From assembly GCF_009914755.1 (NCBI RefSeq), contig NC_060929.1: a stretch of DNA of 64,000 bases, one strand, 5' to 3'. Positions 30,229 to 33,800 of the stretch are shown here, piece after piece (within the stretch, counting starts at the first letter, position 1; every line of letters starts with the position of its first letter). The stretch comes from the human T2T-CHM13v2.0 reference genome, Homo sapiens. Both the position numbers and the translations under genes were made by a program. Under the pieces are notes generated by a model. It did not search any database. It had not been told where the DNA came from and saw only the letters and a list, made by a program, of their open reading frames with translations.

Positions 30229-30790
30229 TTTTTTCACATTAAATGGCCTTCTGCATTTTTGGTCATATAACTTGATTTAAAGACAAACGCTGGTTGATAT
30301 CAATATAGCCACACAAGATTTCTGACTAATGTTTGCATGGTATTTCTCACCATGATATTTTAACATCTGTTTATTTAAACACAGGTTTTTAAATATACCT
30401 CTTTGTCTTACCACAGTACGTCTCTAAATCAAACTTAAATATTATGTAAAAAATCATACTCTGTATTTTCATTTTCTCCTCATTCTATTATATACATTTT
30501 ATTTTTACATATGTCAAAAATTACACAAAAATATACAAAAACTGTGCAGTGAAATCACTTAAACTCATTTTAAACAATCATTGTTTAAATGGTTTTATAA
30601 ATAAAAGAAGTAATATATATGTTGAATAATAGAAATATTGAATAATTCCAGAAATGGCAAATATGTGGGAGCTCTCACATGTCCCCGATTAGACCCTCAG
30701 AGACTTGTACAATAATAACTAGCTCTCTAGCATGTATGTCATTGGAGACTCAAAATGGAGAGTGAAAACAGGGGAAAGAATATTTGAAGG

Positions 30791-32345
30791 ATAGTATTCC
30801 ATGGTGTATATGTGCCACATTTTCTTAATCCAGTCTATCATTGTTGGATATTTGGGTTGGTTCCAAGTCGTTGGTATTGTGAATAGTGCCACAATAAACA
30901 TACGTGTGCATGTGTCTTTATAGCAGCATGATTTATAATCCTTTGGTTATATACCCAGTAATGAGACGGCTGGGTCAAATGGTATTTCTAGTTCTAGATC
31001 CTTGAGGAATCGCCACACTGTCTTCCACAATGGTTGAACTAGTTCACAGTCCCACCAACAGGGTAAAAGTGTTCCTATTTCTCCACATCCCCTCCAGCAC
31101 CTGTTGTTTCCGGAATTTTTAATGATCGCCATTCTAACTGGTGTGAGATGGTATCTCGTGGTTTTGATTTGCATTTCTCTGATGGCCAGTGATGATGAGC
31201 ATTTTTTTCATGTGTCTGTTGGCTGCATAAATGTCTTCTTTTGAGAAGTTTCTGTTCATATGCTTTGCCCACTTTTTCATGGGGTTGTTTGTTTTTTTCT
31301 TGTAAATTCGTTTGAGTTCTTTGTAGATTCTGGATATTAGCCCTTTGTCAGATGAGTAGATTGCAAAAATTTTCTCCCATCCTGTAGGTTGCCTGTTCAC
31401 TCTGATGGTAGTTTCTTTTGCTGTGCAGAAGCTCTTTAGTTTAACTAGATCCCATTTGTCTATTTTGGCTTTTGTTGCCGTTGCTTTTGGTGTTTTAGAC
31501 ATGAAGTCCTTGCCCATGCCTATGTCCTGAATGGTATTGCCTAGGTTTTCTTCTAGGGTTTTTATGGTTTTAGGTCTAACATTTAAGTCTTTAATCCGTC
31601 TTGAATTAATTTTTGAATAAGGTGTAAGGAAGGGATCCAGTTTCAGCTTTCTACATATGGCTAGCCAGTTTTCCCAGCACCATTTATTAAATAGGGAATC
31701 CTTTCCCAATTTCTTGTTTTTGTCAGGTTTGTCAAAGATCAGATGGTTGTAGATGTGTGGTATTATTTCTGAGGGCTCTGTTCTGTTCCATTGGTCTATA
31801 TCTCTGTTTTGGTACCAGTACCATGCTGTCTTGGTTACTGTAGCCTTGTAGTATAGTTTGAAGTCAGGTAGCATGATGCCTCCAGCTTTGTTCTTTCAGC
31901 TTAGGATTGACTTGGCAATGCAGGCTCATTTTTGGTTCCATGTGAACTTTAAAGTAGTTTTTTCCAATTCTGTGAAGAAAGTCGTTGGTAGCTTGATGGG
32001 GATGGAATACTATGCAGCCATAAAAAATGTTCTTTGTAGGGACACGGATGAAGCTGGAAACCATCATTCTCAGCAAACTATTGCAAGGACAAAAAACCAA
32101 ACACCGCATGTTCTCACTCATAGGTGGGAATTGAACAATGAGAACACTTGGACACAGGAAGGGGAACATCACACACTGGGGCCTGTTGTGGGGTGGGGGT
32201 ATGGGGGAGGGATGGCATTAGGAGATATACCTAATATAAATGACGAGTTAATGGATGAAGCACACCAACATGGCACTTGTATACATATGTAACAAACCTG
32301 CACGTTGTGCACATGTACCCTAGAACTTAAAGTATAATAAAAAAA
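30791..32345 (+). mobile_element. L1PA4-like LINE with a 5' inversion (twin priming): inverted 30791-~32005, forward ~32002-32345
   Basis: Antisense ORF2 C-terminus (ORF 31134..31874) joined at 'gggATGGaatactat' to a sense 3' UTR. 'caccaacatggc' and 'taccctagaacttaaag' fit L1PA4-5. Confidence 0.95.
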
Positions 32346-33721
32346 GAAAAACTAGAAAAAAAAGAAGAAAAGCACATGAACACACAATTTCGTATAAGAG
32401 CTGTTAAAGCTGGATGCTAAAGAGACATACTTTCACTTGTATAGTTCACTTAAGTATTAAATGATTTCCTATGACTGAATCAAATATACCAAACATTACC
32501 TCAAGGAAATAGAATTCAATCATTCTTTATTTGATATAATTGTTTTCCTCTCATTGGCTTTGCCCATGGAATCCTTCCAGCTATAAATGTAAAATATTTG
32601 AAAATATATATTCAAGGATTAAAAATGCTACAAAAATACCAATGTACTTAGGAATTACTGAGTAAACCCGAGCAATATATGGCATAAAATAACATTGACA
32701 TTAAATCACATAATATTCAGACTTGTAAAAACTAACAGGCATATTATGCATGGTCTTTTAGTAATTATATATTTCTAAGCACAACTACAACTACGAACCT
32801 TCAAATCCAAGAGATAAACACTTATTTATAGTACAATTTTTTGCTTTTCTTTTCTCTCGCCATCACCCCAGCAGTACAGACAAACCCATCACGTAATTTA
32901 TTGAATATTAAATTCTCATTACTTTATTTCTGTTGCCACACTTATGGGAAGCCTGGTCAAATAAGCAACAGAATAGGGAAGTAGCCTTTTAAAATGAATA
33001 ACACACTAGAAAATGTTAGGTTTAATTACAGGTAATAGTTTTAAAGCAATATTTCTCTTATAAACATCTGTGGCATTATAATACAAAATTGACTTGATAT
33101 TTAGATTTTTGTTGATTTTGAAAAGTTCATCCTAGATAAAAATGCAACTTTTATACAACTAAATGAGGTTTCTCTTTAAGCAAAATGCATCAGATAGAAA
33201 TAATTTCCAATTACATATTTAGAGTACTCATGAAAGACAATTTATTTTCTTTTTGTTTACTCTGATTTCATTTTACTAGAAGGTCATCAGAAGAAAAGCC
33301 ACAATATGTTGTTACAAAAAATTTGATGCTGATAAGAATGAAAAATTATCTTTAAAATGTATTTTCATGGATCATAAATCCTCTTCAATTTTAGCTGCAA
33401 ACTATAGAATAATATGAAGTGAATATGTCTAATTTGTTAAGGAATATTGGTAATAAATAGGACTATGATAGAGTAATATGAGTTAGCACTGAAGAACGAA
33501 AAAAGTTAGGTTGTATAAAAGCTCAGCATTCGGGATAAATATTTTAACTCAATAATACTAAAAATAAATTTTAATGCAAAATAATTACATGATGATCAAA
33601 ATATCGAATTTTAAATGAAGGATCTGATCCTGTGCTTGCATAAATCTGTTGCACTCGAATTCTTGTCTTGCTAATTGAAATACACATTTGCTGATTTTTT
33701 TAAGCAAACATTCAAATAAAA
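32346..33721 (+). other. Putative L1 3' transduction (~1.37 kb of non-repeat-looking DNA)
   Basis: Lies between the L1 A-tail and the second copy of an 18-bp TSD, gaaagaatatttgaagga (30774-30791 and 33722-33739). Confidence 0.8.
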
Positions 33722-33800
33722 GAAAGAATATTTGAAGGAATATCGGCTGAATGTTTTCCATATTTGATGAAAAGTATAAACTCAGAGATTAAAGACAAAC

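What the first reader, a model, noticed from the sequence alone, without database searches (positions are those of the whole stretch)
30774..33739. Twin-primed L1PA carrying a ~1.4 kb 3' transduction, bounded by a perfect 18-bp TSD
Seen: gaaagaatatttgaagga sits immediately 5' of the inverted L1 arm (30774-30791). It does not recur after the L1 poly(A) at ~32345 but ~1.37 kb further on (33722-33739). Removing everything between the two copies restores a continuous sequence that matches an intact inverted copy at 34299-34460, so the window holds its own empty-site control. Established: L1 read-through moves 3' flanks, and twin priming produces 5' inversions. Inference: 32346-33721 was imported from the locus of a source L1 elsewhere. 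Caveats: the terminal A-tract is only 'aaataaaa' and the nick context is not canonical TT/AAAA.
Basis: partly seen in the sequence, partly recalled or inferred. Interest (0 to 1): 0.8.

Follow-up and report, generated by a model that had tools for sequence, protein, structure and literature searches.

The report
Inverted L1 carrying chr4 DNA
This is an old, dead LINE-1 insertion that flipped its front part while inserting and dragged 1.36 kb of chromosome 4 sequence along with it, a well-known way in which these elements shuffle DNA, so it is a clean textbook case and not a surprise.

Summary
The 18-mer is exact at 30774-30791 and 33722-33739 and occurs nowhere else in the window. Both flanks align to one uninterrupted inverted paralog and overlap only at a single 18-mer, 34358-34375. 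So 30792-33721 (2930 bp) is one insertion.

It has four parts:
- An inverted L1 arm, 30792-32004. It encodes ORF2p residues 864-1095 (E 7e-141).
- A direct L1 3' end from 32002. It abuts the inverted arm in L1 coordinates with an 8-11 bp overlap on 29 of 29 reference copies.
- An A-tail, 32339-32363.
- 1358 bp of non-L1 DNA, 32364-33721.

The non-L1 DNA has one full-length paralog in the genome, chr4:45309592-45310943, at 93.7% identity. The homology starts right after the A-tail and stops at the base before the 3' TSD.

No L1 lies in the 10.6 kb upstream of the chr4 copy. I read chr4 as the empty site of a lost source L1.

The ages agree: 2.4% private substitutions in the L1 arm and 2.9% per lineage in the transduced pair.

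Two oddities remain: a terminal A-run of at most 4 and a TTTC/CC nick.

Verdict: a twin-primed L1 with a 3' transduction. The kind is known and the interest is low.

The parts
30774..30791 (+). 5' copy of the 18-bp target-site duplication
   Evidence: Exact 18-mer. It aligns to the single site 34358-34375 of the intact inverted paralog.
30792..32004 (-). Inverted L1 arm covering the C-terminal third of ORF2. Its L1-3'-most end lies next to the 5' TSD.
   Evidence: The minus-strand translation of 31137-31895 matches LINE-1 ORF2p residues 864-1095 (E 7e-141). The arm is 94.6-95.7% identical over its full length to 29 genomic L1 copies, which came from 11321 first-look candidates of which 40 were scored. 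It has 9 stops in the main frame plus a frameshift, so it is dead.
32002..32338 (+). Direct L1 arm: the end of ORF2 and the 3' UTR, including the element's own AATAAA at 32336-32341. Bases 32002-32004 (ATG) can be assigned to either arm.
   Evidence: On 29 of 29 contiguous L1 copies it maps directly 3' of the inverted arm, with an 8-11 bp overlap in L1 coordinates. Sequence read.
32339..32363 (+). Interrupted A-tail of the L1. Under the transduction model this tail was encoded in the DNA of the source locus.
   Evidence: Read directly. It lies between the end of the L1 homology and the start of the chr4 homology.
32364..33721 (+). 1358 bp of non-L1 DNA copied from chr4:45309592-45310943, i.e. 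the 3' transduction. AGCAAA lies at 33703-33708 (AGTAAA in chr4) and AATAAA at 33715-33720 (AATGAA in chr4).
   Evidence: One full-length paralog in the whole genome, 94% identical. BLAST gives 93.67% over 1359 columns with these exact end points. Alignment. 79 of 1349 aligned sites differ.
33722..33739 (+). 3' copy of the 18-bp target-site duplication
   Evidence: Exact 18-mer. It aligns to the same site of the intact paralog as the 5' copy.
34299..34460 (-). Intact inverted paralog of the host repeat, which serves as the empty-site control. Its single copy of the 18-mer site is at 34358-34375.
   Evidence: Inverted repeats I2 and I3, the three-way alignment, and family members elsewhere in the genome.

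Best explanation
30792-33721 is one L1 retrotransposition event, made in two steps.

**The template RNA.** A source L1 once sat on the + strand of chr4, immediately upstream of position 45309592. Transcription read through its own weak polyadenylation signal. The resulting RNA carried the L1, its DNA-encoded A-tail, and 1358 nt of chr4 flank.

**The insertion.** The L1 machinery nicked the chr5 target with an 18-bp stagger inside an old interspersed repeat.
- The bottom strand primed cDNA from the 3' end of the read-through RNA. That cDNA ran through the chr4 flank, the A-tail and about 340 nt of L1.
- The top strand primed a second cDNA internally on the same RNA (twin priming). It copied 1.2 kb of ORF2 in the opposite orientation.
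- The two cDNAs were joined at a 3-nt ambiguous junction, leaving 8-11 L1 bases present in both arms.

**Afterwards.** The source L1 was never fixed, or was lost, so chr4 now shows the empty site.

**Shown:** the single-event boundaries, the L1 identity, the arm geometry, the chr4 origin with its exact boundaries, the absence of an L1 at chr4, and the matching ages.

**Inferred:** that a source L1 once existed at chr4, and why the RNA ended where it did. In chr4 an AGTAAA hexamer lies 13 nt upstream of the end, and a U-rich tract supplied by an antisense Alu starts 8 nt downstream of it.
For: 1. **One event.** The 18-bp TSD is exact. Both flanks align to a single uninterrupted paralog and overlap only at the 18-mer. 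11 of the 35 other family members span the site.
2. **L1 identity.** ORF2p residues 864-1095, E 7e-141, and 94.6-95.7% identity to 29 L1 copies.
3. **Twin-priming geometry.** On 29 of 29 copies the inverted arm maps to locus positions 1501-2715 and the direct arm starts at 2705 or its equivalent. The arms therefore abut with an overlap of up to 11 bp. A long-read survey reports a median overlap of 12 bp (quartiles 4-17) and 5' inversions in 18.4% (165 of 897) of germline L1 insertions (PMC12016303, passages read).
4. **Transduction.** There is one full-length paralog in 3.1 Gb. The homology runs from 32364, the first base after the A-tail, to 33721, the last base before the TSD.
5. **Direction.** The chr5 copy is the derived one. 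It lies inside the TSD-bounded insert, whereas the chr4 copy has neither a TSD nor an A-tail.
6. **chr4 boundary.** It reads ACACT|GAAGC, which is CTTC/AG on the bottom strand: four pyrimidines, the nick, then two purines. This fits the degenerate L1 endonuclease site (the consensus TTTT/AA is recalled).
7. **Same age class.** 28 of 1187 private substitutions (2.36%) in the L1 arm against 79 of 1349 (5.86%, or 2.9% per lineage) in the chr4/chr5 pair.
8. **Architecture.** The non-L1 part lies 3' of the L1 A-tail. In the known template-switch or ligation chimeras the non-L1 RNA lies 5' of the L1 3' end (bioRxiv 10.1101/2025.02.02.635956, passages read).
Against: - No L1 is present at the chr4 locus. 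The 10.6 kb upstream of the paralog holds no L1 3' end, so the source element is inferred and not seen.
- The insert ends in at most 4 A's (CAAATAAAA|TSD in the window against CAAATGAAATTGGG in chr4). A long terminal tail is what is usually expected.
- The chr5 nick reads TTTC/CC on the bottom strand, which is not one of TTTT/A, TTTT/G or TTTC/A. The same survey found those motifs in 63.4% and a tail in 90.7% of germline L1 insertions, so both deviations are uncommon but not rare.
- No canonical AATAAA lies 10-30 nt upstream of the end of the transduced RNA. The AGTAAA is present in chr4 only (AGCAAA in the window), and its ancestral state is unknown.
- No sibling insertions carrying the same chr4 tag were found.
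Confidence: 0.9

Rival explanations
1. Template-switch (or RNA-ligation) chimera in reversed order. The L1 reverse transcriptase started on an unrelated chr4 transcript spanning 45309592-45310943, reached its 5' end, and then jumped onto the poly(A) end of an L1 RNA. Under this reading no source L1 ever existed at chr4.
For: No L1 lies at or near the chr4 boundary. Template switching and RNA ligation by the L1 machinery are documented routes to chimeric insertions flanked by TSDs (passages).
Against: In the catalogued chimeras the non-L1 RNA lies 5' of an L1 3' end. Here the order is the opposite. The model needs trans-mobilisation of an unspliced, AT-rich (28% GC) intergenic RNA that has no A-tail, and then a jump exactly onto the end of an L1 tail. 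The chr4 boundary fits a pyrimidine4/purine2 endonuclease site. That is expected for an L1 insertion site but not for a transcription start. Loss of a source L1 before fixation is the usual fate of active copies (established knowledge, recalled).
Confidence: 0.05
2. Two independent events. A 1.36-kb chr4-derived copy first inserted with the 18-bp TSD. A twin-primed L1 later landed exactly at its left edge.
For: The 6 bases before the L1 (GAAGGA) resemble the 6 bases after its A-tail (GAAGAA). That could be read as a very short second TSD.
Against: GAAG after the A-tail is native chr4 sequence (GAAGCAAAG), so it is not a duplicated target. The L1 would have had to hit the exact junction base within a 1.4-kb target. 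The first event would be a tail-less retrocopy of an intergenic RNA. The L1 arm and the chr4-derived stretch show the same divergence class.
Confidence: 0.02
3. DNA-level capture. Chr4 DNA plus L1 cDNA or DNA filled a double-strand break, independently of the L1 endonuclease or through templated repair.
For: The nick is non-canonical (TTTC/CC) and there is almost no terminal A-tail.
Against: A clean 18-bp TSD without deletion of the target is the signature of staggered endonuclease nicks. Endonuclease-independent insertions usually lack TSDs (recalled). The order L1, A-tail, flank, all on one strand and with exact boundaries, is what a read-through RNA predicts.
Confidence: 0.03

Closest known systems
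L1 3' transduction (Moran et al. 1999; Goodier et al. 2000; Pickeral et al. 2000; Szak et al. 2003). These are recalled. Their references were seen only in the reference list of PMC9311842, and the papers themselves were not held.
   Same: Non-L1 DNA sits between the L1 A-tail and the 3' TSD. It has a unique paralog on another chromosome whose homology starts at the tail and ends at the TSD. The event is interchromosomal, as in most catalogued cases (PMC9311842, passage).
   Different: The source L1 is not present in this assembly. The transduced stretch ends without a clear second poly(A) tail (at most 4 A's), and its poly(A) signal is at best a variant hexamer seen only in the chr4 copy.
Twin priming / L1 5' inversion (Ostertag and Kazazian 2001). 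This is recalled. The paper was not held. The mechanism is described in PMC12016303 (passages).
   Same: The inverted 5' segment and the direct 3' segment lie inside one TSD pair. They are adjacent in L1 coordinates with an 8-11 bp overlap, close to the reported median of 12 bp.
   Different: Here the direct cDNA also includes 1.36 kb of transduced flank. No paper I read counts how often inversion and transduction occur in the same insertion. I ran no search aimed at this combination or at this locus.
U6/L1 and other RNA/L1 chimeric insertions (bioRxiv 10.1101/2025.02.02.635956, passages)
   Same: Two unrelated sequences arrive in one TSD-bounded L1-mediated event.
   Different: In those chimeras the foreign RNA lies 5' of the L1 3' end. 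Here the foreign DNA is 3' of the L1 tail, and it is unique genomic flank and not a small RNA.

Membership tests
L1 target-primed insertion | Element is L1 sequence | tested here: met
   ORF2p residues 864-1095, E 7e-141. 94.6-95.7% identity to 29 genomic copies. Pfam gave no family for three pieces.
L1 target-primed insertion | Target-site duplication of about 7-20 bp with an intact empty site | tested here: met
   Exact 18-bp TSD. A single copy of the site in the inverted paralog and in 11 of 35 family members elsewhere in the genome.
L1 target-primed insertion | Poly(A) tail directly before the 3' TSD | tested here: not met
   Only AAAA, or none, precedes the TSD: CAAATAAAA in the window against CAAATGAAA in chr4. 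It cannot be told whether a tail was lost or never present.
L1 target-primed insertion | Nick at the endonuclease consensus (TTTT/AA and close variants) | tested here: not met
   The bottom strand reads TTTC/CC. This is not among TTTT/A, TTTT/G and TTTC/A, which were found at 63.4% of germline L1 insertions.
Twin-primed (5'-inverted) L1 | Inverted and direct segments are adjacent in L1 coordinates, with a small overlap or gap | tested here: met
   Overlap of up to 11 bp (8 if the 3 ambiguous bases are not counted) on 29 of 29 reference copies.
Twin-primed (5'-inverted) L1 | The end of the inverted segment next to the 5' TSD is its L1-3'-most end | tested here: met
   Window 30792 corresponds to the highest L1 coordinate of the inverted arm (locus position 2715 on + oriented copies).
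L1 3' transduction | Unique non-L1 DNA between the L1 A-tail and the 3' TSD, with a paralog whose homology has exactly these limits | tested here: met
   One full-length paralog. Limits are 32364 and 33721.
L1 3' transduction | A source L1 directly upstream of the paralog | tested here: not met
   No L1 3' end in chr4:45299000-45309591. This is compatible with an unfixed source element, but that is an inference.
L1 3' transduction | A downstream polyadenylation signal 10-30 nt before the end of the transduced stretch | tested here: inconclusive
   chr4 has AGTAAA ending 13 nt before the end, and a T-rich tract starts 8 nt after it. The window copy reads AGCAAA. That AGUAAA is a used variant signal is recalled.
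L1 3' transduction | L1 and transduced DNA are of the same age | tested here: met
   2.36% private substitutions in the L1 arm and 2.9% per lineage in the transduced pair.
Template-switch RNA/L1 chimera | Foreign RNA lies 5' of a 5'-truncated L1 3' end | tested here: not met
   The foreign part lies 3' of the L1 A-tail.

The most novel reading that the evidence does not exclude
The event may have been primed without a poly(A) tail. In this reading the read-through RNA was cut at a cryptic site created by the U-rich tail of an antisense Alu in chr4. It was then reverse-transcribed from an essentially tail-less 3' end at a non-consensus TTTC/CC nick. Alternatively, the insert is a reversed-order chimera, in which a chr4 RNA was copied first and the enzyme then jumped onto an L1 tail. 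Either reading would make it a fixed germline example of L1 integration that bypasses the usual poly(A) and T-tract requirement.
Probability: 0.1. Interest if true: 0.35.

Novelty: new member of a known kind. Interest (0 to 1): 0.12.

Why it matters
This is a well-resolved example of two textbook L1 side-effects in one insertion: a 5' inversion by twin priming and a 3' transduction. It carries its own empty-site control and has an identifiable donor locus on chr4.

Its practical value is small. It shows that 1.36 kb of apparently unique chr5 sequence is a retro-copied duplicate of chr4 that repeat masking does not flag. It also marks chr4:45309592 as the site of a once-active L1 that is now lost. 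No gene or annotated element is involved. It does not change what is known about L1.

Tried and rejected
- **Pfam.** Scans of three stop-free L1 pieces gave 0 families. The PDB sequence search then named the protein.
- **Classic papers.** The papers on twin priming and transduction were not held (PMC311219, PMC156586, PMC310862). They are cited from recall and from a reference list.
- **chr4 as the derived copy or an orphan sibling.** Considered and rejected: it has no TSD and no A-tail at its ends.
- **Internal priming at the end of the insert.** I tested by eye whether the target's 3' end (TTCTTTC) could have annealed to the A-rich end of the chr4 RNA and so explained the junction. The predicted junction does not match the observed one, so I dropped it.
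- **Other matches to the transduced stretch.** The three short matches of 48-102 bases at 76-88% identity, query 1150-1272, are AT-rich fragments. They are not sibling transductions.
- **L1PA subfamily.** The age is given only as divergence.
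Full report
**Observation**

The 18-mer GAAAGAATATTTGAAGGA occurs exactly twice in the 64-kb window, at 30774-30791 and 33722-33739. The only other match at up to 3 mismatches, at 60876, has 3 mismatches. None of 100 shuffles reached 3 matches (also family D6).

The sequence left of the first copy (30689-30789) is 93% complementary to 34360-34460. The sequence from the second copy rightwards (33722-33798) is 88% complementary to 34299-34375.

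In a three-way alignment both flanks lie on one continuous inverted copy. They overlap only at the 18-mer, where 14 of 18 columns are invariant. The window therefore holds an uninterrupted paralog of the target with a single copy of the duplicated site, at 34358-34375.

That paralog belongs to an old interspersed repeat. A genome search with 34280-34480 gave 38 matches: 3 local and 35 elsewhere, the latter at 71-87% identity. Of those 35, 11 span the whole 18-mer site in one aligned piece.

So everything between the two 18-mers, 30792-33721 (2930 bp), arrived at a staggered break 18 bp wide.

**What the insert is made of**

*The L1 arms.*
- The minus strand of 30792-32004 is L1. A 253-residue stop-free piece (31137-31895) matches human LINE-1 ORF2 protein residues 864-1095 with E 7e-141. 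Pfam gave nothing for this or two other pieces.
- A genome search gave 11321 first-look candidates, of which 40 were scored. I took the 29 best non-self copies as references. They are 94.6-95.7% identical to the arm over its whole length.
- The main frame has 9 stops and a frameshift, so the copy is dead.
- From 32002 the plus strand carries the end of ORF2 and the L1 3' UTR, with the element's AATAAA at 32336-32341. An interrupted A-tail follows at 32339-32363.
- On the 29 contiguous reference copies the inverted arm maps to locus positions 1501-2715, and the direct arm starts at 2705 or the mirror-image equivalent. In L013 and L023 the aligned piece stops 1-3 bases short, which extrapolates to the same value.
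- The arms are therefore neighbours in L1 coordinates and share up to 11 bases (ATGGAATACTA). The count is 8 if the three bases 32002-32004, which fit either arm, are not counted.
- The end of the inverted arm next to the 5' TSD is its L1-3'-most end.
- This is the geometry twin priming predicts. A long-read survey reports 5' inversions in 18.4% (165 of 897) of germline L1 insertions. It gives a median overlap of 12 bp between the two cDNAs, with quartiles 4-17 (PMC12016303, passages read).

*The non-L1 part.*
- A search of the window's own 3.1-Gb genome with 32370-33715 found the window itself and one other full-length copy, chr4:45309598-45310937, at 94% identity. It also found three short AT-rich matches of 48-102 bases.
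- BLAST of window 29001-36000 against chr4:45299000-45312437 gave 93.67% identity over 1359 columns, from 32364 to 33721 and from chr4 45309592 to 45310943.
- In the alignment the homology begins at GAAG, the first non-tail bases after the A-tail. It ends at CAAAT(A/G)AAA, the last bases before the 3' TSD.
- The chr4 copy has no TSD and no A-tail of its own. The chr5 copy lies inside a TSD-bounded insert. So chr5 is the derived copy.

**The source locus**

No L1 3' end lies in the 10.6 kb upstream of the chr4 copy. The only other matches are Alu-like stretches and a 71% antisense L1 fragment downstream. So chr4 looks like the empty site of a source L1 that was not fixed.

The boundary reads ACACT|GAAGC, which is CTTC/AG on the bottom strand: four pyrimidines, the nick, then two purines. 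This fits the degenerate form of the L1 endonuclease site TTTT/AA (consensus recalled).

At the other end chr4 continues TTGGGAA, then a T-rich tract of about 30 bases, then a diverged antisense Alu. That Alu is flanked by a TSD of about 13 bp, AATTGGGAATTTT and AATTGGACATTTT. chr4 carries AGTAAA ending 13 nt before the end of the homology. The window reads AGCAAA at the same place.

My inference is that the read-through RNA was cleaved there, with the variant hexamer upstream and the U-rich Alu tail downstream. That AGUAAA is a used variant signal, and that this Alu is of an old type, are recalled and not tested.

**Age**

- The L1 inverted arm differs at 28 of 1187 sites (2.36%) at which at least 80% of the 29 other copies agree. 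Those copies themselves show 1.18-2.52%, with a median of 1.68%.
- The chr4/chr5 pair differs at 79 of 1349 aligned sites (5.86%; 47 transitions, 32 transversions, 8 gap columns). That is 2.9% per lineage if the two lineages changed equally.
- The two figures are of the same class, as a single event requires.
- The reference copies were chosen as the nearest to the window copy, which biases the first figure downwards.
- With recalled neutral rates of about 0.1-0.17% per Myr this gives roughly 15-30 Myr, the age range of middle L1PA subfamilies. I did not assign a subfamily.

**Mechanism**

The best explanation (0.9) is an L1 3' transduction combined with twin priming.
- A source L1 at chr4:45309592 was transcribed past its own weak signal.
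- The RNA carried the L1, its DNA-encoded tail and 1358 nt of flank. It was reverse-transcribed at a chr5 nick.
- The second DNA end primed internally on the same RNA and produced the inverted arm.
- The two cDNAs were joined with 3 ambiguous bases.

**Evidence against, told in full**

- The source L1 is not seen.
- The terminal A-run is at most 4 bases. Either AAAA follows CAAAT, or there is no tail and one G-to-A change.
- The chr5 nick is TTTC/CC.
- No sibling insertions share the chr4 tag.

The survey found a tail in 90.7% and one of three endonuclease motifs in 63.4% of germline L1 insertions. These deviations are therefore minority features and not anomalies.

**Rivals**

- *Reversed-order template-switch chimera (0.05).* It explains the missing source L1. 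But it contradicts the layout of catalogued chimeras, where the foreign RNA lies 5' of the L1 (passages). It also needs trans-mobilisation of a tail-less intergenic RNA.
- *Two independent events (0.02).* This needs an L1 hit at the exact junction base. The apparent 6-bp match GAAGGA/GAAGAA is native chr4 sequence.
- *Endonuclease-independent or DNA-level capture (0.03).* This fits the odd nick and tail, but not the clean 18-bp TSD with an intact target.

**Comparison and novelty**

Both processes are long known, and no defining feature of them is contradicted beyond the caveats above. I found no paper that names this locus, but I made no search for it: searches were on the mechanisms only. 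The classic catalogues were not held, and their supplements may list it.

I file this as a new member of a known kind, of low interest (0.12). The decisive checks are primate orthologues of both loci, which these tools do not offer.

Noticed in passing
window 30689-30791 + 33740-33798 versus 34299-34460: The host of the insertion is an old interspersed repeat. It is present as an inverted pair about 500 bp apart (once the insert is set aside), with arms 88-93% alike. There are 35 other genomic matches at 71-87%. I did not decide whether it is one element with long terminal inverted repeats or a local inverted duplication, and I did not name the family.
   Followed up: partly
window 35050-35193 (masked 35000-35339): A second L1 3' end, antisense and with a T-rich tail. 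It is 80% complementary to 32237-32380 (pair I1). It is unrelated to the insertion studied here.
   Followed up: no
L002 / chr4:45310951-45311270: A diverged antisense Alu with a TSD of about 13 bp starts 8 nt after the point where the transduced stretch ends. Its T-rich tail may have acted as the U-rich downstream element of the cleavage site used by the read-through RNA. This is inference only.
   Followed up: partly
window 32020-32035: By eye, the direct L1 arm seems to lack about 13 bases just after the ATAAAAAATG motif, compared with the usual L1 sequence. The reference alignments show gap openings and only 83-91.5% identity for this arm. I did not measure the size of the deletion.
   Followed up: no
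window 33519-33641: Three short matches elsewhere in the genome (chr15, chr4, chr2; 48-102 bases at 76-88% identity) fall in this AT-rich part of the transduced stretch. They could be a fragment of an ancient repeat or a composition effect.
   Followed up: no
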